The translations under genes and the position numbers were made by a program. From Trypanosoma brucei (lineage: Eukaryota), in the NCBI GenBank assembly GCA_000002445.1, contig CH464491.1, forward strand, positions 416,001 to 480,000: 64,000 nt of DNA, written 5' to 3'. Below the pieces are notes generated by a model, which ran no database searches, was not told where the DNA came from, and saw nothing but the letters and a program-made list of their open reading frames with translations. This document shows positions 31,706 through 53,808 of the stretch, piece by piece (position 1 is the first letter of the stretch; every line of letters starts with the position of its first letter).

Positions 31706-34700
31706 TATTTGATCCATTGTTTTGTTCTGTATTATGGTAATATACAGAACAAGAACACATCATTAAATGTAACAGCCAGTTCGAGTAGTTAACTGACCGT
31801 AGGCACCGTTATTGGGACAGATGCCAGCAACAATTCACGTAAACTTTATTGGATTTTACAATAACTTGAATACGAGATATACAAGGATTTCATTACAGTT
31901 TTGTAATTGTTTCATTTTTTTGTAAATTATACCCATTACATATTGTGAAGAGTAAAGAACAGTTAGAAAAGCGTGTGTCCATACAACAAGCTTTTTGCCC
32001 AATGGAAATTTGTATTTTAGTTGTAAGAGTAATGATTATTATATTGCGCTCATTCATGTTACAACTATACCAAATGGACATCTTGTTATTTTGTACTTCA
32101 TTCTAACTTTATAACGACATACTCTCACACACATATATTGAATAAATTATTTTGATTATCATTTACTGACAGAAATAACAAAGAAACTTTATTATAAATT
32201 ATATCAGAGCGGCATCTTGAGCACCAAGTTATTACAAGGGAAATTATTTTACAACACATTACGTTTCTTGTAAATCTTTTTTTTATACTTGATACAGACA
32301 GACATATATTCTCAAGCAGTTCAACGAAATTACACTGCTTCATTAAAATATTTTAACTTATTGTATTTGTTTTGTAATAACATAATTTATCCTATTACAT
32401 TTCCTTTCGGAGCTATTTGAACTAACCGTTTATGAAGATGTCATACATTCTGAAGCCTCTTGTACACAAGAATGAAGTGGCGCTGTTCCAATAGAAAATC
32501 TTACTTCCCTATCTGGCCTTTGTTTTGTAACGTAACGTTGGCTTGTAATATTTTATGCCCCAAGATGTAACGAACCGAGAAGAAATTTCGTTTGTTTTAC
32601 AGACGCCTCCAAATAACCGCAACTGTATGTTTGTTATTTTCTGGATTGTTGAGTCGTCCCCTGCTCTTTTTGCAACATTGAAACCCATTACTTTTCTTCA
32701 CTAGTGCGGAATATATTCTATGTTGATGTTTTGTTGTTACTTGGTGATATTTGCGTACCCTACTACTGTAAGATAGCGAAGTAGAAGAACTACATTTCTA
32801 AGGGTCGGAGGTTTCTGTTCCTACAGAAGTAAAAGAGTGTTGTGTTTCAAGGGATGCGTGCGCGGTGTGGCAATGTTGTTGAGCAGCGATACTGTCTTGA
32901 ACCCATGAAACCAAAAGGTGGAGAATATTTGGCCCCTCAAGGGTAATTATCATAGCATTCCGTGTGTTATTTTTTATAATGGAACTGAAGTGAGCCAGGT
33001 GGGTTTTTTAAATCTTCATACATGAACAGTGGTGTCAATTACCTCCTAGTGCATGCATGATACCGTCTTTCATATATGGATATTGAACCTACCAAACACC
33101 CAATGAATACGACCTTACGCCGTGCGTCACTTGTCTTCAATATTTTGAATGTTGTGTTCACTTAACTTTTCTCACCCTCAATAGTGTTGGAGGTGTGGAT
33201 AAGACTCAGAAAACGCGATACAGTTACGCTACAGAACAATGAAGTAGAGGGTAACGTGCTGATGGCAAAATTTTTACTTTCAATGCCTTTGCGGCCGGCG
33301 TCCTTTCCTCCTCGGTGAAACTCACGATTTTCCTTTCAACATCCCTGCGTTAGATGCATGGCACGCGAAAACATAACCATACCCACATGCAACCGTGTGC
33401 ATTAGGAGTGTGCATAACCGGGATGTTGGGAAAGAGCCCCCGATGCGACGCCGTATCATTTATGACTATGCCGGTGGTCGAAAACAGGGAACTTCCTCGT
33501 TCTCATTGGGCCCACCCATTCATAAGGTCTGGCGGTCGGGGATGGCCTTAATGCGACAGGTACACGTACGGCGACGCTGGAGACGGCTGCATTGTCAACG
33601 GGTAAGCCAAGTTCCTCTATGCGTCCTAATCTTTAGAGTTTTTGGCAGTCGGTTGGTTGAGAGCTCCTGTTTTGAAGAAAAGTAGCCATACCATCTGTTC
33701 TCTGAAGTGCTAAGGGTATCGCGTTTTCTTCCCGAACTCGAAGACGCACTACTTTGGGGATATATAGACTGGCTGTCATTCAGTGCGGATGTTGAGCACA
33801 ACCAAGGGTCCAAATTTTCACAGATGTTAATGAGGTGCCGGGGATCTTTCCCAGTCGAAAAGGCTCGAAATGATCGAGCATTCATGTGACTTCGAAGTCG
33901 ACTTCCACCTTCCGTAAACACAACCACGTACCGGAGTGGGCGAACACATACATTTCATGACGCCCTCGTGTTGGAATAGTATGGTTTCCCATAGGAGAAT
34001 GAACGTCCATACAGATCAGGAATAACAATGGTGCAATACAAAGTCAAAATCCTGTGGTGACCCCTCGGAGTATCAGTCACGTTTTCGCTTACAAAGAAGG
34101 TGCAAACTACGCTCGTGTGTATGCGGTCCCTGGGCCTATTCGCAGCAGTTATGTGTTGCAATCTCACTGCGGGGTCCAATGCGTATTTTAAAGGGCCAAT
34201 TAGAAAAACTTATACGTGGACTTACACAACTAATCCTTTGTCAGTTGATCCAGGTAAACTTTATCAGCAACAGGGTCATGCGGCTGTTCTTTATGGAATG
34301 TAATGGTGGGAAATAGGGGTGAGACCGTGAGGATATTTCGAAACTGCAAATCGTTAGTGAAACAGAAGGGAAAGGGAAAACATTACAGAATAAACTGGTA
34401 AGAACTGATACTCTAAATAAAGGTTGAGAGGGATCTCGCAGAACTGAGTGCAGTTTTGAGCGGTGATTGACAAAAGGCTGTCTCATTAGTTGATTGAGGA
34501 AGAAACTTACGTACCTGGTCCAGTGTGTCGCTTCCTTCTCTTCACTCTAACGGCAACATTGCATTAACTGAATTCTGCAGCTGTTGAGGGGGATGGGCAC
34601 GCAAAAGTACCTTATGTGTTTGGAGGCGCGGGCAAAACCAGGAAAAAGTAGTTCTCGTCACCCTGGTGAGTTTCACCCTCTTCCGTGCAGGTTTGTCTTT

Positions 34701-37660
34701 TAGCGTTTTCGGTACCGTTTTCAACATTGCTGTTGGCGCTGCTTCCACGCGGCAACTGCATCCCAATATTCAGATGTCCCTTTAATCCTGTATTTTTCCA
34801 TGTTGCCGATGATTATCGTTTCTGTGCCCGATGAAGCGTCTAAACTCACCAGTTCATTTGTTGAAACTTTTCACTCCTTCTTATTGAATATCCCTATTTT
34901 TTGCGGCGTATGAGAGCCCTCCCCCATTCGTCTTTTGCGTTTGCTTTTATACCCACCCACGGAAAGCAAATTTATTTTCTCCTCGGAATCAACATCCAAG
35001 GAGCTTTAAGTGTGGAGTGCACCCTGATTTTCGCCTTCGGAGCACCAGACCTCCACTGTATTCAGCCATTCAGGTATTGGATGACTTCTAGGATATTGCC
35101 GGTTTATTATGTCTGAAAAGCATCCTTTTTGGCACTTGACGTGAGGCGGTATTCCACAGCCCACTTTTTTGGTCTTTTCAAACAAATATCAGTCGTGCTT
35201 ATTTGAGCATATCTTGTTTGTTTGCGTGCGACGAAATCTCAGCAATCGTGTATGCCGACTGAGCTTCCTTGCTTTTCGCTTTCTCCCCGCTTGAAATGGA
35301 AACGGAGAACCGTAGAAATAATACCATAGTCCATCTTTGCTTAGATGGGTCGAGAGTGGAAAGCTGTCGGTGTTTCTTGGGAGTTTTGCTCAGGTGATAG
35401 CACAACTCTTGGCTTTATGAATCTTGTCGTCGCTGCCGCCGCCATTTGCCACACATAGATTGGTACCCCTTCGGTTGCCACAATGCGGCGCCAAACAGAT
35501 TTGGCGTATTGGCATCGCTCACCATTTTTCCACGACTCGTGAAAGCGCATGGCTCTCGAGTGCTCGGTCCAAGTGATTTGTACTCCACCTCCGCCGGCAC
35601 TTCCGTAAAGTGTCCCGTTTATCGCTCGGTCACAAATTACAGAACCTGCTATAACTTACCTCTAAATTCTCCTCGTCCGAATTGAGTCACTGTGAGTTCC
35701 ATTTCGTAACTGAATAAACTGTGCGCGAGTCCAGGGATCACGTTCAGTTCTTTGCCCGGTCGTCCCATCATTATGAGCCCGGACCCGACACAGACGTATG
35801 AGGAACAGTGCATGTCGACTCTACACTCCCCGATAAAGTGTTGTTTACTCCGTTTTGTTTTTGAGGGGGCTGTGAGAAGAACTGCCAAGCCCATACCCAT
35901 TGCCAAGTAATGTACAAAACTCATCGATCCCCATTTTCATACCACGGTTAAGAGAAGCGTCGCAAAGAGTGAGTTTTTGAAACGCCCACCGAACCCAACC
36001 GTCACCGCCTCCGCGCGGGAGGCAGGTTAAGGGCACTTCCACCACCTTCTTTACCGCCAGTAAATTAACTTCCATACAATTGAGGACTCGCACACTACAG
36101 AAATCCCCCTCCCAAGCAATTTTAACGGCCGGCGTTGTAGGCACAACAAAGGTTAAAATATTACTCCTCCTGCTCGTTTTCTCTTCATTCAACACAAAAA
36201 AGGCAATGTATGGACTGTTCTGCCCGTTTTTTTTTTTTTGAGAGAGAGGGATAGTGAGGCTTCTGCAGCGGTAAAATTGCGAGTCAAGTGTTACCACGCT
36301 GTGGGAGGACACGACGTATAATGAAGGAAACTTTTTTTTTGCTTGCGGGCGGTTTAAAGGGATATGCGTTTAAACCATTATATCTTGAGTGGGTGGCGCC
36401 CGAAAAAGATCGCGAAGCAGGCATGAAGCTTGCGAAACTTCTTGGGGCTCAAAGGACCAACGACACGGTGAACTTGACAAAATTTGAGGGATGTAGAAGC
36501 TACATGTTGAGGAGAGCACAATGCATTAGCACGGTTCCCTAGGGCACTGGCTTTATGGAAACGGTGGTAAGATACCCGCTGGGGAGGCGAGCCAAACGTG
36601 CATTCATTTGGTGTATGGACTGCTAATAAACAAATGTAACAGGCGGAAGTCGGAGTTGTCGCACGCGGTGAGGCACCCCGTTGAGACGGAAGTATGGACC
36701 GAAACAACCCTCACATATAAAATGAAGCGTTCGCGTCACCCCCCCCCCCCCAGCGGCAGACATTGGCATATATGCGTTCGCGCTTGCACTTCATGTCAAT
36801 TTCGCCACTGAAAGGAGCACTCCATCCTGCGTGTGTGTGTGTGTGTGCTTGCCTGTGCATCTTTTTTCGAACGCCGTTGTTTTTATGTACGAAACGGAGG
36901 GCGGGGAGGGAGGGGAATCCCAGGTGGAAGTTATATTTCATGGCAGGGGAATATTGCTGACAGAATACTGTTACCAGTGCCCCGGCTGGTGGGGTTCGCC
37001 AACACGAAAGGACAATAGTGAAAAAAAATAAGGACTGGGGGAATAAAAATTTACAGAAGTTACACAGTTAAAAACACCATGAGCAATCGACGATTTCCAG
37101 ACCCTCTAGCACCACGATTCGGAGGTATTATTACACATTCCAGAATTTGTAGAGGTTCAAATTCAAGTTCCACGGTTCCAGTAATCCATCAGCCCTCACA
37201 AAACGTGTAAAGAAGCGCCAAGTTACTTCATGAGTCTCATCCGACCCATCTCATTCACGCTTTTCAAATACATACACTACAAAAAATCTACTCCCTCCGG
37301 TCTCCACAGGACGCACAAATTTGTCAGCGTGAACCCTGGTCCATGACGTAGAAAGTGTCTTGCGCCACCCGAAATACGTGGCTGAAGGATTTCGCGGGAC
37401 GGATACAAACCCCGCTGGGTAAAAGTGTGTGGGAGTTATCGTGCCTTCCGGGACCTATCTCCACAGCACATGTTTTCACCTCAGGGCAAAACGCATGTGG
37501 CCGCCTCATGCGAAATGGCATATCGGGAACACACCGCACACAGCACATCGGATACTAGCACCTACTCGACTACAAACAAGTAGAAAACGCACATGCATAG
37601 TACATTACGCCCCAGCAACGGGGGTCCTCCCCATTGATGGACGTGATGCGTGCCGAAGAA

Positions 37661-37728
37661 CGTGGACTGTAATTTTACCCGAGGTGTAAGCGCGATGAAT
37701 CACACCTCGGGTAAAATTACAGTCCACG
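37661..37728. repeat. perfect 27 bp inverted repeat (hairpin with 14 nt loop) about 95 nt downstream of the last gene of the minus-strand polycistronic unit
   Basis: The left arm cgtggactgtaattttacccgaggtgt, the loop aagcgcgatgaatc and the right arm acacctcgggtaaaattacagtccacg are read directly from the sequence. The right arm is the exact reverse complement of the left arm. Confidence 0.9.
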
Positions 37729-37822
37729 AGCCTCGTCCACACGACCGGATGGGCAACTGCGTTGGAAACTACTTATGAAACAGAGTTAATAGTTTCTTTT
37801 GTTTAGAGGCGGGGGTCACACG

Positions 37823-38995
37823 CTATTTTCTCAGTGGTCGAATAAGCCATCTAGGGTCTGAAATGTCCGAGAGAGGGCACACACCACTAAGTTTCATATA
37901 CCGGCGTGCGCCCCACACAGTGTGGACTTCTACAGAGCTATTCTCCAATAGACGTCTGTAGGCATTTTTCTGTTGGAAGGAAGAATCTCGAAGGGCTCTA
38001 AACCAACTTGTTTGGTTGAGATATTTGGGCATCAGGTTCCTCCACGCACTAATTGAGGTTGGGAAGTGCAAAACCACGCCACTTTCGACCGAAACACTGT
38101 GGGGATAATGAAAAAAACGCGTCTCGTAATCGAGGGATATAATTCCCCTTCGCAGCAGTAATTTTGGCTTCACATGCTTCGGCCTACTGACGCTCCATGT
38201 CAACACTATAGTCCACATAGTTTGATCACATAGCCAAATAAGGCTCTGGCGTCTCAAATTAAAGAAAACTTTCAAAGCCTCTTTTAGCGCCCACACTCTG
38301 GCTATCACGCCTCCGCCATTAAGATACGACCTTCCCGATTCATTTACCCTTAAAATATTTTCAACTCCCACACCCCTTGTTGCATCCATTGCGTCATCAA
38401 ACAACTTCTTACAGTTTTGAAACTCCGACCTCCCCTCCGGCTTCACCATGATATTCAGCTGAGGAGTAGCGCAACCCTTCTCAGCGGTAAACAACATTGG
38501 AGGTGTCATTTCTCCTCTTAAAATAGCCGTCTCGTTGAACGCTTCAGGGATTTTTGGTGTAGTGTCGAGGAAATGCTTCACTGCCTCCTCCCTAACACCT
38601 GCATCGGTGAAATAGGTATCTCCCCCATCGAACAACATAATCACATCACTTTCGCGCATCTTCTCACGCACCATGTAACTATAAATCCAGTCCCACCTCT
38701 TCACATGCCCATACCAGCCTCCCATGCCCAGTGTCGCAACCGATGCATTAGTGAGTATAGAACTTACAATCATCCTGCACCACCCCGGAGAGTACCTCGT
38801 GTGCACCACAGCATAATACACCCTCGGCGTATAATTTCTACCACTGTCTTTCTTTCTTAACAACGTCCCTGTTTCCTTGTTCCTCACGCTCATTTCTCCC
38901 AAAAACCAGAGCACAGTTAGCAGCATCACCCCCACCATCGCGGCATATAGTCTTCCCCTTGTGCCCCCATAAATTGCCCTAGCCCCTTTCAACAT
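37823..38995 (-). CDS. type II membrane protein, glycosyltransferase-like (GT-A fold, DGGD DxD-type motif; PLOD/LH3 N-terminal GT-domain-like), paralog A
   Basis: An N-terminal signal anchor (LYAAMVGVMLLTVLWFLG) is followed by VATLGMGGWYGHVKRW...DVIMLFDGGDTYFTD, which resembles the GT domain of lysyl hydroxylase/PLOD (TLGLGEEW...MIIMFVDSYDVIL). The functional call is tentative. The track start at 39010 is a TTG. The first ATG gives MLKGARAIYGG..., matching the N-terminus of paralog B. Confidence 0.45.
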   Translation of the reverse strand: MLKGARAIYGGTRGRLYAAMVGVMLLTVLWFLGEMSVRNKETGTLLRKKDSGRNYTPRVYYAVVHTRYSPGWCRMIVSSILTNASVATLGMGGWYGHVKRWDWIYSYMVREKMRESDVIMLFDGGDTYFTDAGVREEAVKHFLDTTPKIPEAFNETAILRGEMTPPMLFTAEKGCATPQLNIMVKPEGRSEFQNCKKLFDDAMDATRGVGVENILRVNESGRSYLNGGGVIARVWALKEALKVFFNLRRQSLIWLCDQTMWTIVLTWSVSRPKHVKPKLLLRRGIISLDYETRFFHYPHSVSVESGVVLHFPTSISAWRNLMPKYLNQTSWFRALRDSSFQQKNAYRRLLENSSVEVHTVWGARRYMKLSGVCPLSDISDPRWLIRPLRK

Positions 38996-40431: not shown

Positions 40432-43400
40432 ACCAAAAACACATAAATATGTGCAACACCGATTATCTCGGGATGCTGATGCTCCCACTCGCCTACATAT
40501 GAAGGCAGTGGGTCTCAATGCATACCTCGTTAAATGTGAACCCAACGATAACGATATTCTGTGGGACAGATTCAAATAGATGAGACAACAGAGTAGTGTG
40601 CAGGCATTCAATACGTACAACAGTCAGACCTGTTGAGTTTGATTTAGTATTCAATAAGCGCGCTCATAAAGTAAGGCATATTGACCTTCACGTACACATA
40701 ATCGTTGTTTCCATCACACTGCCGCGTCTGTTGTGCATTCCCCCCATTTTCTTATCCACCTTCCCACCCAGATACCACAAACAAACCGCATGATCTCTCT
40801 TACACTTTCGAGCCAATACCGTCACCGAAAGTATACTGACAGGCAGCCAGACAGGGTAAGATTTGGTTCTAATGACATAATGCTGCGTAGAGCAAAGGTA
40901 GTGGGGGGGGGGAAAAAAAAGGATGTGGAGAGGGATGGAGGAAGGAAGGGAACGAGCTGCATAGCAGGCCATTGCTCAGCCGAAAGGTGATTTTTGATGT
41001 TCCGTTATCAATGCATCGCTCAAACTGTTTGGACCTCGAACAACAATTATGCATCACAGCATCAGTGGCCAAAAAGAAAACTAGTAGCACACATATACAC
41101 ACACACGAACATAAACATAAACATAAACATAAACAGGGATGAATGACCTATGAGGAAGAGGGTGGATAAAAACAAAATAATAAGGATGGATGATACTCGA
41201 TTCAGTGTGAGCTGAGTTAAAAATTATGTCTTCAAAATGGCTCTACTGCCGTCAGGCTGACAGGAAACTATTGACTGTCATCATTAGAGGGGAAGATAAT
41301 GCATTTGAGTGCCAAAACTACAAATGGCTCTCGCGCAACAGGACAGGGGCCACATCCCCACGGCATTAAATGGTTGCCACTGGCCCAAGGGATGCTGCGC
41401 TGTATTGTTTCAACAGCACATAAGCAAAAACACATAAATATGTGCAACACCGATTATCTCGGGATGCTGATGCTCCCACTCGCCTACATATGAAGGCAGT
41501 GGGTCTCAATGCATACCTCGTTAAATGTGAACCCAACGATAACGATATTCTGTGGGACAGATTCAAGTAGATGAGACAACAGAGTAGTGTGCAGGCATTC
41601 GATACGTACAACAGTCAGACCTGTTGAGTTTGATTTAGTATTCAATAAGCGCGCTCATAAAGTAAGGCATATTGACCTTCACGTACACATAATCGTTGTT
41701 TCCATCACACTGCCGCGTCTGTTGTGCATTCCCCCCATTTTCTTATCCACCTTCCCACCCAGATACCACAAACAAACCGCACGATCTCTCTTACACTTTC
41801 GAGCCAATACCGTCACCGAAAGTATACTGACAGACAGCCAGACAGGGTAAGATTTGGTTCTAATGACATAATGCTGCGTAGAGCAAAGGTAGTGGGGGGG
41901 GGAAAAAAAAGGATGTGGAGAGGGATGGAGGAAGGAAGGGAACGAGCTGCATAGCAGGCCATTGCTCAGCCGAAAGGTGATTTTTGATGTTCCGTTATCA
42001 ATGCATCGCTCAAACTGTTTGGACCTCGAACAACAATTATGCATCACAGCATCAGTGGCCAAAAAGAAAACTAGTAGCACACATATACACACACACGAAC
42101 ATAAACATAAACATAAACAGGGATGAATGACCTATGAGGAAGAGGGTGGATAAAAACAAAATAATAAGGATGGATGATACTCGATTCAGTGTGAGCTGAG
42201 TTAAAAATTATGTCTTCAAAATGGCTCTACTGCCGTCAGGCTGACAGGAAACTATTGACTGTCATCATTAGAGGGGAAGATAATGCATTTGAGTGCCAAA
42301 ACTACAAATGGCTCTCGCGCAACAGGACAGGGGCCACATCCCCACGGCATTAAATGGTTGCCACTGGCCCAAGGGATGCTGCGCTGTATTGTTTCAACAG
42401 CACATAAGCAAAAACACATAAATATGTGCAACACCGATTATCTCGGGATGCTGATGCTCCCACTCGCCTACATATGAAGGCAGTGGGTCTCAATGCATAC
42501 CTCGTTAAATGTGAACCCAACGATAACGATATTCTGTGGGACAGATTCAAATAGATGAGACAACAGAGTAGTGTGCAGGCATTCGATACGTACAACAGTC
42601 AGACCTGTTGAGTTTGATTTAGTATTCAATAAGCGCGCTCATAAAGTAAGGCATATTGACCTTCACGTACACATAATCGTTGTTTCCATCACACTGCCGC
42701 GTCTGTTGTGCATTCCCCCCATTTTCTTATCCACCTTCCCACCCAGATACCACAAACAAACCGCATGATCTCTCTTACACTTTCGAGCCAATACCGTCAC
42801 CGAAAGTATACTGACAGGCAGCCAGACAGGGTAAGATTTGGTTCTAATGACATAATGCTGCGTAGAGCAAAGGTAGTGGGGGGGGGGGAAAAAAAAGGAT
42901 GTGGAGAGGGATGGAGGAAGGAAGGGAACGAGCTGCATAGCAGGCCATTGCTCAGCCGAAAGGTGATTTTTGATGTTCCGTTATCAATGCATCGCTCAAA
43001 CTGTTTGGACCTCGAACAACAATTATGCATCACAGCATCAGTGGCCAAAAAGAAAACTAGTAGCACACATATACACACACACGAACATAAACATAAACAT
43101 AAACACGGGATGAATGACCTATGAGGAAGAGGGTGGATAAAAACAAAATAATAAGGATGGATGATACTCGATTCAGTGTGAGCTGAGTTAAAAATTATGT
43201 CTTCAAAATGGCTCTACTGCCGTCAGGCTGACAGGAAACTATTGACTGTCATCATTAGAGGGGAAGATAATGCATTTGAGTGCCAAAACTACAAATGGCT
43301 CTCGCGCAACAGGACAGGGGCCACATCCCCACGGCATTAAATGGTTGCCACTGGCCCAAGGGATGCTGCGCTGTATTGTTTCAACAGCACATAAGCAAAA

Positions 43401-45603
43401 ACACATAAATATGTGCAACACCGATTATCTCGGGATGCTGATGCTCCCACTCGCCTACATATGAAGGCAGTGGGTCTCAATGCATACCTCGTTAAATGTG
43501 AACCCAACGATAACGATATTCTGTGGGACAGATTCAAATAGATGAGACAACAGAGTAGTGTGCAGGCATTCAATACGTACAACAGTCAGACCTGTTGAGT
43601 TTGATTTAGTATTCAATAAGCGCGCTCATAAAGTAAGGCATATTGACCTTCACGTACACATAATCGTTGTTTCCATCACACTGCCGCGTCTGTTGTGCAT
43701 TCCCCCCATTTTCTTATCCACCTTCCCACCCAGATACCACAAACAAACCGCATGATCTCTCTTACACTTTCGAGCCAATACCGTCACCGAAAGTATACTG
43801 ACAGGCAGCTAGACAGGGTAAGATTTGGTTCTAATGACATAATGCTGCGTAGAGCAAAGGTAGTGGGGGGGGAAAAAAAAGGATGTGGAGAGGGATGGAG
43901 GGAGGAAGGGAACGAGCTGCATAGCAGGCCATTGCTCAGCCGAAAGGTGATTTTTGATGTTCCGTTATCAATGCATCGCTCAAACTGTTTGGACCTCGAA
44001 CAACAATTATGCATCACAGCATCAGTGGCCAAAAAGAAAACTAGTAGCACACATATACACACACACGAACATAAACATAAACATAAACATAAACAGGGAT
44101 GAATGACCTATGAGGAAGAGGGTGGATAAAAACAAAATAATAAGGATGGATGATACTCGATTCAGTGTGAGCTGAGTTAAAAATTATGTCTTCAAAATGG
44201 CTCTACTGCCGTCAGGCTGACAGGAAACTATTGACTGTCATCATTAGAGGGGAAGATAATGCATTTGAGTGCCAAAACTACAAATGGCTCTCGCGCAACA
44301 GGACAGGGGCCACATCCCCACGGCATTAAATGGTTGCCACTGGCCCAAGGGATGCTGCGCTGTATTGTTTCAACAGCACATAAGCAAAAACACATAAATA
44401 TGTGCAACACCGATTATCTCGGGATGCTGATGCTCCCACTCGCCTACATATGAAGGCAGTGGGTCTCAATGCATACCTCGTTAAATGTGAACCCAACGAT
44501 AACGATATTCTGTGGGACAGATTCAAATAGATGAGACAACAGAGTAGTGTGCAGGCATTCAATACGTACAACAGTCAGACCTGTTGAGTTTGATTTAGTA
44601 TTCAATAAGCGCGCTCATAAAGTAAGGCATATTGACCTTCACGTACACATAATCGTTGTTTCCATCACACTGCCGCGTCTGTTGTGCATTCCCCCCATTT
44701 TCTTATCCACCTTCCCACCCAGATACCACAAACAAACCGCACGATCTCTCTTACACTTTCGAGCCAATACCGTCACCGAAAGTATACTGACAGGCAGCTA
44801 GACAGGGTAAGATTTGGTTCTAATGACATAATGCTGCGTAGAGCAAAGGTAGTGGGGGGGGAAAAAAAAGGATGTGGAGAGGGATGGAGGAAGGAAGGGA
44901 ACGAGCTGCATAGCAGGCCATTGCTCAGCCGAAAGGTGATTTTTGATGTTCCGTTATCAATGCATCGCTCAAACTGTTTGGACCTCGAACAACAATTATG
45001 CATCACAGCATCAGTGGCCAAAAAGAAAACTAGTAGCACACATATACACACACACGAACATAAACATAAACATAAACATAAACAGGGATGAATGACCTAT
45101 GAGGAAGAGGGTGGATAAAAACAAAATAATAAGGATGGATGATACTCGATTCAGTGTGAGCTGAGTTAAAAATTATGTCTTCAAAATGGCTCTACTGCCG
45201 TCAGGCTGACAGGAAACTATTGACTGTCATCATTAGAGGGGAAGATAATGCATTTGAGTGCCAAAACTACAAATGGCTCTCGCGCAACAGGACAGGGGCC
45301 ACATCCCCACGGCATTAAATGGTTGCCACTGGCCCAAGGGATGCTGCGCTGTATTGTTTCAACAGCACATAAGCAAAAACACATAAATATGTGCAACACC
45401 GATTATCTCGGGATGCTGATGCTCCCATTCGCCTACATATGAAGGCAGTGGGTCTCAATGCATACCTCGTTAAATGTGAACCCAACGATAACGATATTCT
45501 GTGGGACAGATTCAAATAGATGAGACAACAGAGTAGTGTGCAGGCATTCAATACGTACAACAGTCAGACCTGTTGAGTTTGATTTAGTATTCAATAAGCG
45601 CGC
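40432..45603. repeat. tandem direct-repeat array: 5 full + 1 partial copies of a 984-991 bp unit, >99% identical
   Basis: The same 60-137 aa ORFs recur at 984-991 bp spacing (e.g. minus-strand ORF starts at 41450, 42434, 43421, 44410, 45399). The unit landmark cacataaatatgtgcaacacc falls at ~40440, 41431, 42415, 43402, 44391 and 45380. Copies differ only by a few SNPs, (CATAAA)3 vs (CATAAA)4, and a G8-11 A8 block. The array ends abruptly at ...caataagcgcgctc / ttttttttttggg. Confidence 0.95.
42180..42275 (-). ncRNA. candidate C/D-box snoRNA, one per repeat unit (coordinates given for the third copy); speculative
   Basis: On the minus strand the unit reads ...ccucuAAUGAUGAcagucaauaguuuccugucagcCUGAcggcaguagagccauuuugaagacauaauuuuuaacucagcucacaCUGAaucgag.... 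This gives a consensus C box (AUGAUGA), a CUGA about 22 nt downstream (D') and a second CUGA about 80 nt downstream (D), so the element is ~90 nt, a typical size for a trypanosome C/D snoRNA. The terminal stem is weak. No covariance search or expression data were available. Confidence 0.2.
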
Positions 45604-48838: not shown

Positions 48839-50413
48839 TCATTTTACACCTCCATCGCAGACTCGCACATCTGCAACTGCTTGCTTCTCGGGATGAAAGC
48901 TCATGAAAGTAATCTTCCCATCCTCACTCTCCAAGAACCTCATGTGTCGCACCTGCAGCAGGTCCTGCTCCGCAGCAGTCAATTCATCCACCTTCACCTG
49001 AGACATTAAGCGACGCGTTTCATCCAACAGGAACTCTGAAGAGAAAGAGTTCGTCAACTTTTCACCCTGGTTAACGCTCTCCTCTTTTATTACCATGTGA
49101 ATTGGAGAAGAAAAGCGACCACGGAGCCCCAATACAGCAATGCATTGTTCCAACGGTGAAAAGCACGGTAGAGGGGATTCCGACACGGGTCGGATCTTTC
49201 CTAACAATCCCTTAACGTGCGATGCTCCCTTCAGCATCCCCGCTGTCGGTTTCTTCGTATGTGCTCGAAATTTGTAATCGTAGCACTGACCGGCCACGAT
49301 GGATCTGAGAGCCCACACTGCACCTTTCAACAGCTCCACACCTTCCTCTATCGCCTCCCTCGAGAGTGGGGACTCCTTCATTGTCATTTGTTTAATTTTA
49401 GACATGTACTTGGCCGGTGAACTGACGTCTTTCACTGCCATTACGGCGCGCAGAAACTCAATATCCACATCGAAACCCTCTCCACGTATGAGTGATCTCT
49501 TAAAATAACCACAGTGGAGACGAAGTTCTCTGTAACGACGCCAGAAAACAAGAGCCACCTTTCCAATTCCCTCAAACCAGTCGCCTCCACTAAGCAGCAT
49601 TAGGAAGACGAAATCAATACGATACGACGGTAACAAATCGGGTCGTATTTGATTCCCCGGTGAAGACGACCCCCAGTGTTTGAAAAGTTCACCAACATCG
49701 GTCAGAGCGTAGTCTCGGGGATCCACTATGGTGAATTTGGTATATGGAGTGCAGGCAACACCAACTAGCACCAAGTCGGAATCATTTCCGACGACTATAA
49801 TTTCATCATCTCCCGTATATGTTTGTGACTTCCGTTGCTCCAGCCAGATGGTACGCAAGACACAAACCACTTTTAGCTCGCCTTCACCACCTTCAGCGCA
49901 GCCACTCATAATAATTGTGTAATTCCTTCCCTCTCCCGGTGGCACACAAAATTCACCACCAATCCCAAATGCACATCTCACCGCATCTTCGCACGCAAGT
50001 AAAAATTCAGACCCCGCGATAATTTCTTCGCGTGAAAATGAGATTTCCTGCCCAATGTAGTCGTGATTGTATCTTAACTCGAGCGAACTTGTACACTCGC
50101 TACTGTGTCGCTTGTTATACGATGCACGCCGGGTCTTCTGTGTCTGAAGTTTGGCGCAAGGCGCAACCCCGTCAAAGAGAATCACAAGGGTTTCACTGGG
50201 GGGAAATGCGGAAATGAGCTTCTGCACAGCCTCAACTACTCCTTCAATCACTGACTTGGTGGTGAAAACATTGGTTGGCACGATATAATGAACAATGGCA
50301 TTCATATCTAAAAGCAGGTGGTTGGTCCTCTTGACGACACCGTCCCTGCCCCTGCTCGAACTTCTGACGAGACCATGTTTCTCGACATAATTTCGTAGCC
50401 CCTTGGTGCCCAT
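48839..50413 (-). CDS. XRN-family 5'-3' exoribonuclease, short form (conserved XRN N-terminal nuclease core only, 524 aa)
   Basis: MGTKGLRNY...LLLDMNAIVHYIV matches the XRN N-terminus (MGVPKFFRW...LYLDMNGIIH). ILFDGVAPCAKLQTQKTRR matches AIDGVAPRAKMNQQRSRR. EGGEGELKV matches PGEGEHKI. VVGNDSDLVLVGV matches GLDADLIMLGL. The acidic catalytic residues are conserved. There is no long C-terminal extension. The ORF starts at an ATG. Confidence 0.7.
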   Translation of the reverse strand: MGTKGLRNYVEKHGLVRSSSRGRDGVVKRTNHLLLDMNAIVHYIVPTNVFTTKSVIEGVVEAVQKLISAFPPSETLVILFDGVAPCAKLQTQKTRRASYNKRHSSECTSSLELRYNHDYIGQEISFSREEIIAGSEFLLACEDAVRCAFGIGGEFCVPPGEGRNYTIIMSGCAEGGEGELKVVCVLRTIWLEQRKSQTYTGDDEIIVVGNDSDLVLVGVACTPYTKFTIVDPRDYALTDVGELFKHWGSSSPGNQIRPDLLPSYRIDFVFLMLLSGGDWFEGIGKVALVFWRRYRELRLHCGYFKRSLIRGEGFDVDIEFLRAVMAVKDVSSPAKYMSKIKQMTMKESPLSREAIEEGVELLKGAVWALRSIVAGQCYDYKFRAHTKKPTAGMLKGASHVKGLLGKIRPVSESPLPCFSPLEQCIAVLGLRGRFSSPIHMVIKEESVNQGEKLTNSFSSEFLLDETRRLMSQVKVDELTAAEQDLLQVRHMRFLESEDGKITFMSFHPEKQAVADVRVCDGGVK

Positions 50414-51678: not shown

Positions 51679-52674
51679 CTACAATTTCTCCACCCACTTC
51701 TCATAACCCTCCCAGGGAGTGGACTCTCTGCAAATATCTTTTAATCCGCCCTCGCCCTGCTGGAACACCATAAAATGAGGAATTCCAGTCACCTTAATGA
51801 ACGGATGCGTGCGGTAGAGATATTTTGGGTTACCCAAATATACGGAGCGTTCAACATTGCATTGCACATAAACGACGCGGCGCTTCTCCTTCGCTGCCTT
51901 CACTGCGCGCTGCACCATTGGCTCTGCAAGAACACACGGAGGACACCACGACTTGTGGGTTTTGGGATGCGACACACCTTTTATAAGCACCACAAGGATA
52001 TCACCGGGTTGCAGTGCGGCTTTGACCTTCTCAAGTGTAGCATCGAAGTCCCTTGGATTTTTTACCAGAATGTTATCTGTATCATTCGCTGGGCCCATCG
52101 CTGTTTCGACTGGCGGATTGTTAATAAAAAACATGTGCTCCTCATGCGCTTCCACCGCTTCCTTGACAAGTGCTTCGGAAAGTCCAGCGGTGTCACGAGG
52201 AATGGGGCGAAAGGTTTCTGCGCGTCTGAAAAGACGGAGGCAAGTGGCGGGTCCCGAGTTGGAAGAAACAACTCGATGATACATTCCGGGGGGGAGAACA
52301 ATCACGTCACCCATTTTCCCCTCAATGCGTACCCACTCATCCTTCTCATTGCGCACATCCACATAAATAATACCACTTTCCACAATTCGCATTTGTTCAT
52401 CCACGTTAAGGTGTTCCATACTCTCATCCTTCGACGGTGTGGTAAACGTAACCTTCTCCAGTGTTTTGTAACCGAGGTTCCAAATGAGTCGCTGGGCGTA
52501 CGTACGGCCTTCATCGTCATCGGGGTGGCGTTCGTGAAGTGTTGCGACATCTATGCTGCGACTATAAACAAGAAATGTTTCCAATTGCACATCCGTCACG
52601 GGGACGTCTGGTGAGCAGTGACATGGTGCAGTAATATCACCCTCTTGTGTGTTCAATAACCAACTGCTCGGCAT
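51679..52674 (-). CDS. fusion protein: acireductone dioxygenase (ARD, cupin, methionine-salvage enzyme) N-terminal domain + TRP14/TXNDC17-like thioredoxin-fold domain (WCPPC motif)
   Basis: N-terminal half: SGIIYVDVRNEKDEWVRIEGKMGDVIVLPPGMYHRVV...CLRLFRRAETFRPIPR aligns with human ADI1 [35 protein letters not shown]...AMRLFVGEPVWTAYNR. C-terminal half: KSWCPPCVLAEPMV...VVYVQCNVERSVYLGNPKYLYRTHPFIKVTGIPHFMVF aligns with TXNDC17 KSWCPDCVQAEPVV...[33 protein letters not shown]. The track start (52716) is a GTG with a Lys-rich leader. The first ATG near 52674 gives MPSSWLL. Confidence 0.6.
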   Translation of the reverse strand: MPSSWLLNTQEGDITAPCHCSPDVPVTDVQLETFLVYSRSIDVATLHERHPDDDEGRTYAQRLIWNLGYKTLEKVTFTTPSKDESMEHLNVDEQMRIVESGIIYVDVRNEKDEWVRIEGKMGDVIVLPPGMYHRVVSSNSGPATCLRLFRRAETFRPIPRDTAGLSEALVKEAVEAHEEHMFFINNPPVETAMGPANDTDNILVKNPRDFDATLEKVKAALQPGDILVVLIKGVSHPKTHKSWCPPCVLAEPMVQRAVKAAKEKRRVVYVQCNVERSVYLGNPKYLYRTHPFIKVTGIPHFMVFQQGEGGLKDICRESTPWEGYEKWVEKL

Positions 52675-52822
52675 TGTTTGATTCTTCCGTTTTGTTTTCT
52701 TTTTTCTTTTTTGCACCTTTAATTAACTTACCTGCACGGGTTTCGCAAAAGTTGACGATGTCTGTAACCTCGATGGGCCCCTAATTAAAGTCCACGATAT
52801 CGGGAACGGGAAGGAAGAGGAG

Positions 52823-52824
<2 letters not shown>

Positions 52825-52878
<54 letters not shown>
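52825..52878. repeat. (CA)27 dinucleotide microsatellite in the intergenic region
   Basis: An uninterrupted cacaca... run of ~54 nt read directly from the sequence. Confidence 0.9.
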
Positions 52879-52879
<1 letters not shown>

Positions 52880-53808
52880 CCAAGGAAAGAAAAAAAAGGA
52901 AAGGAAAGGATAAAAAGATTTTTAAAATATATTTCAAGAATGGTTAAAAAACGTATTGAACAGTGATTGGGAAGAGCTCACAAAACAAAATGATGTTATT
53001 AACTCTCACAAAGTTTTCCCCACTTTTGGAGTCCACATGAATGAGCTGAAGTATACCGCGCAGATTTGTGGTTTCACACATCTCCATATTTTGGGGGAGG
53101 GGGGATCGAAACCGAACCACAGTTAAATGTCGTGTCGCATCATTTCAACAGGACCCGAATGTTTGCCGTCACTTGAAATGTATTTTGACATGCCTCTCAT
53201 CCGGGTGATGTTAAGGGAAAAAGGGAAAGGCAGTAAAACAAAAAACAAAAAAACAAAAAGAAAAAAAATAATAACAACAACAAACAAAAAATAAATACCA
53301 ACTACGCGTGAGAAGGCGAAACTTAAAATGTTATGATGATCTGGACATAAGCCGTCCAACCAGCCCCCGTACAGTTATGGGTTGATTTAATATGTGAAGA
53401 TGCCAATTTTTTTTTGTAATTGCGGCCACATTTAAGTGTTATACCCAATTTATTACCATTCTTAACACCAAATAAACGTCGACTAAACAACATATATAAC
53501 AGTCAAAAATAATTTAGAAAAGAAAAATATAAAACAACTTTTATATACGTTACGGAAGTGGACAGGGGGATCGAAATAAGCTTGCGGTGTGCGTGGAGAG
53601 GGAGGGGAAAGGAACAATAATAACAGTGAAACAAGAAAAAAAAAAGGAAAAAGGTCCGGAGCGAAAAAAAAAAACAAATAGAATTAAAGTGGCCCAGCTA
53701 TGCAGAAGTTATGGAACGGTACGAAAAATATTAAACAGGAGTAATGCACAAAGAGGGGGAGAAGGGAAGATGGCACGACATAAAGTACTGACGCGACTTG
53801 CGCCGACG

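What the first reader, a model, noticed from the sequence alone, without database searches (positions are those of the whole stretch)
51679..52674. Single ORF fusing acireductone dioxygenase (methionine salvage) with a TRP14/TXNDC17-type thioredoxin domain
The N-terminal ~170 aa align block-for-block with ARD/ADI1, including the cupin metal-binding region. The C-terminal ~120 aa align with TXNDC17/TRP14, including the WCP(D/P)C active site (SWCPPCVLAEPMV). These are separate genes in most eukaryotes. ARD product specificity depends on the bound metal and redox state, so a covalently attached thiol oxidoreductase domain suggests redox coupling of the methionine-salvage step. In trypanosomes that could plausibly involve the trypanothione system.
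Basis: partly seen in the sequence, partly recalled or inferred. Interest (0 to 1): 0.5.

Follow-up and report, generated by a model that had tools for sequence, protein, structure and literature searches.

The report
Trypanosome ARD-like/thioredoxin-like fusion, metal site altered
The single gene joining an acireductone-dioxygenase-like domain to a TRP14-type thioredoxin domain is real and already in databases, the fusion is old and common in kinetoplastids, and this Trypanosoma copy has lost two of the four metal-binding residues, so it is probably not a normal methionine-salvage enzyme.

Summary
Window 51679-52674 (- strand) is one uninterrupted 331-aa ORF, identical to T. brucei TREU927 XP_828245.1 (UniProt Q386Z8, chromosome 11). 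Residues 9-153 match Pfam ARD (E=2e-16) and residues 209-306 match TXD17-like_Trx (E=4e-13).

It is not an artefact. The same fused ORF occurs in at least 9 Trypanosoma species in conserved gene order. Synonymous sites are saturated (pS about 0.8) while pN is 0.09-0.25 in both domains.

The fusion is not new or trypanosome-specific. About 40 sequence clusters carry it, including Bodo saltans, a prokinetoplastid, Angomonas, Phytomonas and the amoebozoan Difflugia. One kinetoplastid transcript carries a spliced leader ahead of the whole ORF.

All but two of the other fused proteins tabulated keep H/H/E/H. T. grayi has both this copy and a canonical fused copy at a different locus that is syntenic with non-Trypanosoma trypanosomatids.

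Best reading: a diverged paralogue with a likely redox-active WCPPC domain and a remodelled cupin that is probably no longer a canonical Fe/Ni dioxygenase. It is uncharacterised and of moderate interest.

The parts
51679..52674 (-). Complete ORF of 331 codons plus stop. Identical to T. brucei brucei TREU927 XP_828245.1 / EAN79133.1 / UniProt Q386Z8.
52195..52674 (-). ARD-like cupin domain, residues 1-160.
   Evidence: Pfam PF03079 E=2.2e-16. Mouse ADI1 5i8s E=1.8e-16. Foldseek 1vr3/4qgn target TM 0.77-0.78.
52384..52422 (-). First cupin motif, SMEHLNVDEQMRI (residues 85-97). H88 is retained (52411-52413). Canonical ligand H90 is N (52405-52407). Canonical ligand E94 is Q (52393-52395).
   Evidence: Residue-by-residue alignment to mouse ADI1 with the same numbering. 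N90/Q94 in 9 of 9 Trypanosoma orthologues, against H/E in 37 of 38 other family members at each position. Ligand identities from PMC8315008.
52276..52278 (-). H133, the fourth canonical metal ligand, retained. It is followed by R134 (retained) and V135 (canonical F).
52078..52194 (-). Inter-domain segment, residues 161-199. It contains a confident predicted helix (167-185). It also contains the conserved motif NPPVETAMGPANDTDN; P187, P188, T191, G194, A196, N197, D200 and N201 are invariant in the Trypanosoma orthologues and P0010.
51682..52077 (-). TXNDC17/TRP14-like thioredoxin-fold domain, residues 200-331.
   Evidence: Pfam PF06110 E=4.3e-13. TXNDC17 22fg E=1.1e-8 and TRP14 1wou E=1.9e-6.
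51934..51948 (-). Active-site motif WCPPC, residues 243-247. Both cysteines are invariant in the Trypanosoma orthologues. Pro replaces the Asp of the canonical TRP14 motif WCPDC.
   Evidence: WCPDC from PMC11217419
51778..51780 (-). P299 in the I-P motif, invariant (34 of 34 other sequences and 9 of 9 in clade A). It sits at the position expected for the conserved cis-proline of thioredoxin folds. That assignment is an inference from the alignment.
52680..52925 (-). 5' flank with polypyrimidine tracts (about 52800-52830 and 52885-52925), a (GT)n run (about 52826-52880) and several AG dinucleotides before the first ATG. This resembles a trypanosome trans-splice acceptor region, which is an inference. 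No transcript was recovered for T. brucei.

Best explanation
The gene encodes a two-domain cytosolic-type protein. It descends from an ancestral kinetoplastid fusion of acireductone dioxygenase (MtnD/ADI1) with a TRP14/TXNDC17-type thioredoxin-fold oxidoreductase. The window gene is the Trypanosoma 'A' copy: a fast-evolving paralogue at its own conserved locus, while a canonical 'B' copy sits at the locus shared with other trypanosomatids.

In the A copy the C-terminal domain keeps the CxxC dithiol (WCPPC) and the conserved proline. It therefore most likely still works as a thiol-disulfide reductase. Because trypanosomatids lack thioredoxin reductase (general knowledge), it is presumably recharged by trypanothione or tryparedoxin.

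The N-terminal cupin has lost two of the four ligands of the 3-His-1-Glu metal site, and neighbouring pocket residues have been remodelled. It is therefore probably no longer a canonical Fe/Ni acireductone dioxygenase. It more likely serves as a ligand- or partner-binding or regulatory module for the reductase domain.

Shown: the ORF, the domains, the conservation, the paralogy and the ligand substitutions. Inferred: loss of ARD catalysis, retained reductase activity, the reductant, and the binding role.
For: ORF and domains.

Fused orthologues of 328-334 aa occur in T. congolense, vivax, cruzi, melophagium, grayi, conorhini and rangeli. T. theileri has a 313-aa partial record, and the T. brucei subspecies and T. 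equiperdum carry it too.

Gene order is conserved: TatD ... ARD-Trx ... XRN_N ... acyl-CoA dehydrogenase in the window and in T. grayi. XRN_N also lies downstream in T. vivax.

Purifying selection acts on both halves. T. brucei against T. congolense gives pN/pS of 0.18/0.79 for ARD and 0.09/0.78 for Trx.

Ligand states: H-N-Q-H in all clade-A sequences (9 of 9 species). Of the 38 other family members tabulated with this region present, 36 are H-H-E-H; the exceptions are P0027 (HHTH) and P0034 (HGEH). A further 15 otherwise-conserved positions differ in clade A (17 with H90N and E94Q). D73E, W155F, Y180H and D246P are fixed in 9 of 9; G103, F105, F135 and others are changed less uniformly. W114, R116, R134, C244 and P299 are among those kept.

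Paralogy: T. grayi encodes both A (P0006) and a canonical fused B (P0020). The B locus shares its large upstream kinase gene with an Angomonas-like trypanosomatid contig (tblastx 3.6e-178). Neither locus shares flanks with the window. Clade A is monophyletic with 100% bootstrap on a long stem.

Literature: the HsARD ligands are His88/His90/Glu94/His133, and any single-ligand mutant of K. oxytoca ARD loses metal and activity (PMC8315008). KEGG shows the two enzymes preceding acireductone synthase (EC 3.1.3.77) as missing in T. brucei, and that enzyme was not found in the regular trypanosomatids in KEGG (PMC3846528). The title of pmid 29530564 reports that a T. cruzi 'putative acireductone dioxygenase' binds and inhibits enolase, which would be a non-catalytic role.
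Against: The substituted site is itself nearly invariant (EHLN-x-DEQMR). R96, D92, E93, H88, H133 and R134 are kept. The pocket is therefore under constraint, not decaying.

Asn and Gln can ligate metals through their amide oxygens. Gln is a zinc ligand in cupin-type phosphomannose isomerase (my own knowledge). An altered but functional metal centre cannot be excluded.

No biochemical or localisation data were found for this T. brucei protein.

I could not read the T. cruzi enolase paper, and I could not establish which T. cruzi paralogue it concerns.

The timing of the A/B split is unresolved. Support for A as sister to the trypanosomatid B group is only 47%. L. major is also reported to have two ARD-like genes (PMC2290936).

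T. brucei has a second gene annotated as ARD, Tb927.4.360, reported as axonemal. I could not retrieve its sequence.
Confidence: 0.6

Rival explanations
1. It is still the working acireductone dioxygenase of Trypanosoma methionine salvage. It uses an unusual His2-Asn-Gln metal site. The attached TRP14-like domain keeps the metal, a cysteine or the substrate reduced, or handles a sulfur by-product. This is essentially the first reader's idea.
For: The family-level match is well above the Pfam cut-off and the fold matches ADI1. The pocket segment EHLNxDEQMR is almost invariant across about 9 species, and R96 and R134 are kept. Both domains are under purifying selection. Canonical-ligand versions of the same fusion are widespread, which implies a real functional link between ARD and the Trx domain. 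UniProt's automatic name is 'acireductone dioxygenase (Fe(2+)-requiring)'.
Against: Two of four ligands are replaced, one of them the only carboxylate. Single-ligand mutants of K. oxytoca ARD lose metal and activity (PMC8315008). Aromatic pocket residues F105, F135 and W155, and also G103, are replaced. A canonical paralogue persists in T. grayi and T. theileri, which is the usual pattern when one copy has changed function. The upstream enzymes are reported missing from T. brucei in KEGG.
Confidence: 0.22
2. The cupin half is a relic without function. Only the thioredoxin-like half matters.
For: Catalytic ligands are lost. There is a long stem branch.
Against: The ARD half is 53-71% identical across Trypanosoma, close to the Trx half at 61-83% and more conserved than the linker in most comparisons. 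With synonymous sites saturated, pN in the ARD half is only 0.18-0.25. No species has truncated the A copy to a Trx-only protein.
Confidence: 0.08
3. The apparent fusion is an assembly, frameshift or annotation artefact that joins two neighbouring genes.
For: None was found. No T. brucei transcript that spans the junction was recovered. The Logan contigs for this gene look genomic.
Against: There is an uninterrupted ORF in the window and in independent assemblies of at least 9 species. The linker is conserved. In a related kinetoplastid, a contig begins with the spliced-leader 3' end AGTTTCTGTACTTTATTG 36 nt before the ATG and covers both domains through to the stop codon.
Confidence: 0.01

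Closest known systems
Canonical kinetoplastid ARD-TXNDC17 fusion proteins, for example Bodo saltans CUG89762.1, Angomonas deanei AGT02502.1 ('iron(II)-requiring acireductone dioxygenase') and Trypanosoma grayi XP_009310662.1
   Same: Same two-domain order, similar length (about 330-360 aa) and the same conserved linker motif (PP..T..G.AN..DN). tblastn against the window gives 29-33% identity over the full length, with E from 5e-32 to 2e-53.
   Different: They keep H-H-E-H and the aromatic pocket residues, and mostly carry WCPDC. Exceptions are Angomonas (WCPPC) and T. grayi B (WCADC). The window protein has H-N-Q-H, a remodelled pocket and WCPPC, and lies at a different locus.
ADI1 / MtnD acireductone dioxygenase (Pfam PF03079; PDB 1vr3, 5i8s, 4qgn)
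   Same: Cupin fold, N-terminal ARD-specific extension, residue numbering that runs in register with mouse ADI1, and H88, H133, R96 and R134 retained.
   Different: H90N and E94Q. F105, F135 and W155 replaced. An extra C-terminal thioredoxin-fold domain. Only about 24-26% identity.
TRP14 / TXNDC17 (Pfam PF06110; PDB 1wou, 22fg), a cytosolic cystine, persulfide and S-nitrosothiol reductase recharged by TrxR1
   Same: Family-specific profile match, a CxxC preceded by Trp, the conserved proline, and the long conserved loop before it.
   Different: WCPPC instead of the family hallmark WCPDC (PMC11217419). Fused to a cupin. The mammalian reductant TrxR1 is absent from trypanosomatids (general knowledge).
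Tryparedoxin (trypanosomatid WCPPC oxidoreductase)
   Same: Identical active-site pentapeptide WCPPC (general knowledge of tryparedoxin).
   Different: No profile-level relationship. Apart from TXD17-like_Trx, only generic Thioredoxin matched, at E=0.0025, and no tryparedoxin-type family appeared at E<=1. The shared motif is most simply convergent.
Tetrahymena MtnBD and other ARD fusions
   Same: Precedent for ARD being fused to another enzyme (PMC3698126).
   Different: Those partners are methionine-salvage pathway neighbours or detoxification domains, and the ARD ligands are intact. Here the partner is a thiol oxidoreductase and the ARD site is altered.

Membership tests
ARD / MtnD / ADI1 (acireductone dioxygenase) | Sequence match to the family profile above the curated threshold | tested here: met
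   PF03079 at 60.9 bits against a cut-off of 27, E=2.2e-16.
ARD / MtnD / ADI1 (acireductone dioxygenase) | Cupin fold with the ARD-specific N-terminal elements | tested here: met
   The AF2 model matches 1vr3 and 4qgn with target TM 0.77-0.78 and E about 1e-14.
ARD / MtnD / ADI1 (acireductone dioxygenase) | 3-His-1-Glu metal site (H88, H90, E94, H133 in human and mouse numbering) | tested here: not met
   The site reads H88, N90, Q94, H133, fixed in 9 of 9 Trypanosoma orthologues. Ligand identities are from PMC8315008.
ARD / MtnD / ADI1 (acireductone dioxygenase) | O2-dependent cleavage of acireductone to KMTB and formate (Fe) or MTP, CO and formate (Ni) | not testable with these tools
   This needs recombinant protein.
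ARD / MtnD / ADI1 (acireductone dioxygenase) | Pathway context: MtnA, MtnB and MtnC present to supply the substrate | not tested
   No T. brucei proteome was accessible. PMC3846528 reports that KEGG lacks these steps for T. brucei.
TXNDC17 / TRP14 | Sequence match to the family profile above the curated threshold | tested here: met
   PF06110 at 49.4 bits against a cut-off of 23.1. PDB TXNDC17 E=1.1e-8.
TXNDC17 / TRP14 | Redox-active CxxC dithiol | tested here: met
   C244 and C247 are invariant in clade A.
TXNDC17 / TRP14 | Hallmark WCPDC motif with the acidic Asp | tested here: not met
   The motif is WCPPC. D246P occurs in 9 of 9 clade-A sequences, against D in 31 of 34 others.
TXNDC17 / TRP14 | Reduction by thioredoxin reductase, and cystine or persulfide reductase activity | not testable with these tools
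   Requires a biochemical assay.
Tryparedoxin | WCPPC active site | tested here: met
   Residues 243-247.
Tryparedoxin | Profile-level membership of the tryparedoxin-type thioredoxin family | tested here: not met
   No such Pfam family appears at E<=1. Only TXD17-like_Trx and generic Thioredoxin matched.
Kinetoplastid ARD-TXNDC17 fusion architecture | Both domains in one ORF, ARD at the N-terminus, with a conserved linker | tested here: met
   About 40 clusters share this architecture.

The most novel reading that the evidence does not exclude
The ARD-derived cupin has become a metabolite- or protein-sensing pseudoenzyme domain that gates a TRP14-like, trypanothione-dependent reductase. It might bind an MTA- or polyamine-pathway product, or a partner such as enolase. 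That would link flux from spermidine and trypanothione synthesis to thiol-redox control in Trypanosoma. More broadly, the ancient canonical fusion acts as a 'Rosetta stone', predicting a functional partnership between ADI1 and TRP14, and so between methionine salvage and cystine or persulfide reduction, in eukaryotes where they are separate genes.
Probability: 0.12. Interest if true: 0.7.

Novelty: new variant of a known kind. Interest (0 to 1): 0.42.

Why it matters
Three consequences would follow if the cupin is catalytically altered.

First, the automatic label 'acireductone dioxygenase (Fe2+-requiring)' on the T. brucei, T. congolense and T. conorhini proteins would be misleading, as would the equivalent dioxygenase name on the T. 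cruzi record. Metabolic reconstructions of methionine salvage in African trypanosomes would need revisiting. That pathway is tied to polyamine and trypanothione synthesis, which is a drug-target area.

Second, the protein would be an uncharacterised TRP14-type dithiol oxidoreductase in an organism whose thiol metabolism is unusual.

Third, the wider and older ARD-TRP14 fusion, which the papers I could search do not discuss, hints at a functional link between methionine salvage and TRP14-type cystine or persulfide reduction. That link could be tested in model eukaryotes.

Tried and rejected
(1) Artefact or frameshift. Rejected on the basis of ORF conservation in at least 9 species and a spliced-leader-bearing transcript in a related kinetoplastid.

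(2) T. brucei transcript evidence. The three Logan contigs carrying the 99%-identical protein (ERR7929156, ERR7929159, ERR7929162) have no spliced leader, and one runs on into genomic upstream sequence. They are uninformative.

(3) 'T. brucei has lost the canonical copy.' I first inferred this because searches with T. grayi B and T. theileri B returned no other Trypanosoma hits. I withdrew the inference for two reasons. The word-index search is lossy: one search failed to return P0020 even though a direct BLAST gives 8e-74. The literature also names a second T. brucei ARD-annotated gene, Tb927.4.360. I could not retrieve its sequence.

(4) Looking for a non-Trypanosoma orthologue of clade A through flanking synteny of the divergent trypanosomatid sequences P0027 and P0032. 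No shared flanks were found.

(5) Resolving the date of the duplication with NJ trees. Clade A is robust, but its attachment point is not (27.5-47% support; in the Trx-only tree clade A does not group with the B clade).

(6) Precise dN/dS. Synonymous sites are saturated, so only pN and pS are reported.

(7) An AFDB Foldseek search for named Leishmania homologues. The library was unavailable.

(8) Reading the T. cruzi enolase/ARD paper (pmid 29530564). It is not held.

(9) Literature searches for TXNDC17 plus acireductone, DUF953 plus Trypanosoma, and Q386Z8. All returned zero papers. The methionine-salvage review PMC6302742 does not mention thioredoxin fusions.
Full report
**1. What is in the sequence**

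On the minus strand, window 52674 to 51679 is one open reading frame of 331 codons plus a stop. The longer GTG-initiated ORF listed mechanically (to 52716) is not relevant. The ATG at 52674 gives an N-terminus, MPSSWLLNTQ, that is conserved in all orthologues. The 5' flank carries polypyrimidine tracts and AG dinucleotides typical of trypanosome trans-splice acceptor regions (this reading is an inference).

The protein is 100% identical to T. brucei brucei TREU927 XP_828245.1 / EAN79133.1 / UniProt Q386Z8, which lies on a 5.26-Mb record, chromosome 11. The window also holds the TB11Cs4 snoRNA array, which fits chromosome 11. NCBI calls the protein 'hypothetical protein, conserved'. UniProt's automatic name is 'acireductone dioxygenase (Fe(2+)-requiring)'.

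**2. Both halves match their families**

- Pfam ARD (PF03079) matches residues 9-153: E=2.2e-16, 60.9 bits against a cut-off of 27.
- Pfam TXD17-like_Trx (PF06110) matches residues 209-306: E=4.3e-13, 49.4 bits against a cut-off of 23.1.
- Against PDB sequences, the N-terminal half matches mouse and human ADI1 (5i8s, 1.8e-16). The C-terminal half matches TXNDC17/TRP14 (22fg, 1.1e-8; 1wou, 1.9e-6).
- An AlphaFold2 model built from 11 sequences has mean pLDDT 77.5 and pTM 0.73, with a confident helix (167-185) joining the two domains.
- Foldseek places the cupin half on 1vr3 and 4qgn with target TM-scores of 0.77-0.78.

**3. The fusion is real**

- Fused orthologues of 328-334 aa, 56-76% identical, exist in T. 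congolense, T. vivax, T. cruzi, T. melophagium, T. grayi, T. conorhini and T. rangeli. T. theileri has a 313-aa partial record, and the T. brucei subspecies and T. equiperdum carry it too.
- Gene order is conserved. TatD, two large conserved hypothetical genes, ARD-Trx, an XRN_N exonuclease and an acyl-CoA dehydrogenase occur in the window and in T. grayi. XRN_N is also downstream in T. vivax.
- Between T. brucei and T. congolense, synonymous sites are saturated (pS 0.78-0.79). Non-synonymous differences are 0.18 in the ARD half and 0.09 in the Trx half. More distant pairs behave similarly. Both halves are under purifying selection.
- I could not obtain a T. brucei transcript, because the Logan contigs look genomic.
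- In a related kinetoplastid, the contig encoding the fused homologue P0010 begins with the 3' end of the spliced leader (AGTTTCTGTACTTTATTG) 36 nt before the ATG. It runs through both domains to the stop. That is one mature mRNA.

**4. The fusion is neither new nor specific to trypanosomes**

An exhaustive profile search of 1.84 billion representatives returned roughly 25 full-length fused clusters. Further searches raised the total to about 40. Named members include:

- Bodo saltans
- the free-living prokinetoplastid Apiculatamorpha spiralis
- Angomonas deanei, already deposited as 'iron(II)-requiring acireductone dioxygenase'
- Phytomonas
- a second T. grayi protein
- the amoebozoan Difflugia compressa

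. A subgroup that includes Difflugia has a monothiol WCPD(A/V) motif. The T. vivax record is named 'ARD ARD' family / Eukaryotic protein of unknown function (DUF953)'. The architecture is thus visible in public annotation.

I found no paper that discusses it. Searches for TXNDC17 plus acireductone, DUF953 plus Trypanosoma, and Q386Z8 returned nothing. The 2018 methionine-salvage review does not mention thioredoxin fusions.

**5.

The HMMER alignment to mouse ADI1 runs in register with the same residue numbers. The protein ligands of human ARD are His88, His90, Glu94 and His133 (PMC8315008). The window protein has H88, N90, Q94 and H133.

This state is fixed in all nine Trypanosoma orthologues. 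Of the 38 other family members tabulated with this region present (33 fused proteins and 5 single-domain ARDs), 36 have H-H-E-H; the exceptions, both fused, are P0027 (H-H-T-H) and P0034 (H-G-E-H).

Of 49 positions that are at least 85% conserved in the rest of the family, clade A keeps 32 and changes 17. The changes beyond H90N and E94Q fall into two groups:

- Fixed in 9 of 9: D73E, W155F, Y180H and D246P (WCPDC to WCPPC).
- Less uniform: F105 to mostly V (one species keeps F), F135 to L/V and G103 to I/L/V (never the family residue), and others.

W114, R116, R134, C244 and P299 are among the positions kept. The same review states that mutating any of the four ligands of Klebsiella ARD abolishes metal binding and activity.

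The substituted segment itself, EHLN-x-DEQMR, is almost invariant within Trypanosoma. The site is therefore constrained in its new form and is not decaying.

**6. Paralogy**

T. grayi encodes both the window-type protein ('A', P0006) and a canonical fused protein ('B', P0020, H-H-E-H, WCADC). T. theileri has A plus a 188-aa canonical ARD, 55% identical to T. grayi B, with no thioredoxin remnant downstream.

The T. grayi B locus shares its large upstream kinase gene with a contig from an Angomonas-like trypanosomatid (tblastx 3.6e-178). Neither shares flanks with the window. B is therefore the copy at the ancestral locus, and A is a duplicate of the already fused gene at a separate, Trypanosoma-conserved locus.

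NJ trees give clade A 100% bootstrap support on a long stem. The topology inside the clade follows the species tree. Dithiol kinetoplastid fusions, including A, group with 80% support. The attachment of A next to the trypanosomatid B group has only 47% support, so the date of the duplication is open.

Two caveats from the literature apply.

- L. major is reported to have two ARD-like genes, LmjF20.0970 and LmjF34.4600 (PMC2290936).
- T. brucei has a second gene annotated as this dioxygenase, Tb927.4.360 (PMC3973304). It is described as axonemal and associated with outer-dynein-arm IC1 (bioRxiv 10.1101/2025.07.26.666928).

I could not retrieve those sequences. I therefore withdrew an earlier inference that T. 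brucei lacks the B copy. The word-index search tool had also missed a known 55%-identical pair.

**7. How it most likely works**

Shown:
- a conserved two-domain protein
- an intact CxxC and conserved proline in a TRP14-type fold
- a cupin with two of four metal ligands and several pocket residues replaced
- descent from a canonical fusion

Inferred:
- The C-terminal domain is still a dithiol reductase. TRP14 is a specialised reductase of cystine and related small disulfides that is recharged by TrxR1 (PMC11217419). Trypanosomatids lack thioredoxin reductase, and WCPPC is the tryparedoxin motif (both my own knowledge). Recharging by trypanothione or tryparedoxin is therefore the natural guess.
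- The cupin is no longer a standard Fe/Ni acireductone dioxygenase. It acts instead as a binding or regulatory module.

Three further points fit this reading. KEGG-based analysis reports the steps that produce acireductone as missing in T. brucei (PMC3846528). ADI1 has metal-independent moonlighting roles (PMC8315008). The title of a T. cruzi study reports that a 'putative acireductone dioxygenase' binds and inhibits enolase (cited in PMC9611177). That paper was not readable and the paralogue it concerns is unknown.

I put about 0.6 on this reading. The main rival, at about 0.2, is a still-active ARD with a His2-Asn-Gln site. It remains open because the pocket is strongly conserved and amide oxygens can ligate metals.

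**8. Comparison with known families**

The protein passes the profile and fold tests for ARD and fails the defining 3-His-1-Glu test. It passes the profile and CxxC tests for TXNDC17 and lacks the hallmark Asp of WCPDC. It shares only the pentapeptide with tryparedoxin and has no profile match.

It is best filed as a divergent member of the kinetoplastid ARD-TXNDC17 fusion family. It should not be filed as a bona fide acireductone dioxygenase.

**9. Verdict**

The fusion is real, conserved and already present in databases, but uncharacterised. It is not a lineage-specific novelty. The part worth following up is the Trypanosoma-wide remodelling of the ARD metal site in one of two paralogues. 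It implies that the current enzyme annotation may be wrong and that the protein is a TRP14-like reductase with an ARD-derived accessory domain. Interest is moderate at 0.42, and the category is a new variant of a known kind.

Noticed in passing
window 40466-45468 (- strand): A tandem array of about five to six units, each about 988 bp, carries the H/ACA snoRNAs TB11Cs4H1, H2 and H3 (Rfam RF01539-RF01541; 16 hits above the gathering score). This is the known T. brucei chromosome 11 snoRNA cluster.
   Followed up: partly
window 31705-37823: Large ORFs switch from the + strand (ending at 31705) to the - strand (from 37823). This looks like a convergent strand-switch region between polycistronic units. 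No tRNA genes were found anywhere in the window.
   Followed up: partly
window 52826-52880: A long (AC)n/(GT)n microsatellite of about 27 units lies in the 5' flank of the ARD-Trx gene, between two polypyrimidine tracts.
   Followed up: no
window 51775-52614 (+ strand): A 279-aa ORF lies antisense to the ARD-Trx coding region. It is most likely a by-product of the coding strand's composition. There is no evidence that it is a gene.
   Followed up: no
window 48839-50413 (- strand): The downstream neighbour is a 524-aa protein with only the XRN 5'-3' exonuclease N-terminal domain (PF03159, E=4e-25). It holds the same position in T. grayi and T. vivax.
   Followed up: partly
L008 8001-8567 (T. 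theileri NBCO01000014.1): The canonical 'B' paralogue in T. theileri is only 188 aa (ARD alone). No thioredoxin-domain remnant is detectable downstream by tblastn. This is a secondary loss of the fused domain.
   Followed up: yes
P0028, P0034, P0055, P0147, P0177, P0184 (Difflugia and metagenome proteins): A second class of ARD-TXNDC17 fusions has a monothiol motif, WCPD(A/V)RKA, with the resolving cysteine lost. It includes the amoebozoan Difflugia compressa. This suggests that the architecture extends beyond Kinetoplastea or arose more than once.
   Followed up: partly
P0016, P0021, P0025, P0030; P0204, P0228; P0221, P0233: Other ARD architectures turned up: ARD-ARD tandems (including chytrid proteins), a protein with four ARD-like repeats, aldolase_II(MtnB)-ARD fusions (including Symbiodinium), and ARD-GST fusions.
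   Followed up: no
L001 1-18 and L002 8-25: Contigs from SRR22100210 and SRR22100204 that encode the canonical fused homologue P0010 start with a kinetoplastid spliced-leader 3' end. They are therefore trans-spliced mRNAs from an unnamed, Bodo-like kinetoplastid.
   Followed up: yes
P0140, P0142, P0132, P0090, P0148, P0027, P0034: Degenerate ARD metal sites occur sporadically in other lineages: HCIH, HNHH, HDEH, HHQH, HHGH, HHTH and HGEH. ARD-like proteins with altered sites are therefore not unique to Trypanosoma.
   Followed up: no
literature: Tb927.4.360 (not in the window): T. brucei has a second gene annotated as this dioxygenase. It is reported as axoneme-localised and co-purifies with outer-dynein-arm IC1. 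It is also translationally up-regulated in procyclic forms. The sequence could not be retrieved, so its relation to the 'B' paralogue is unknown.
   Followed up: partly
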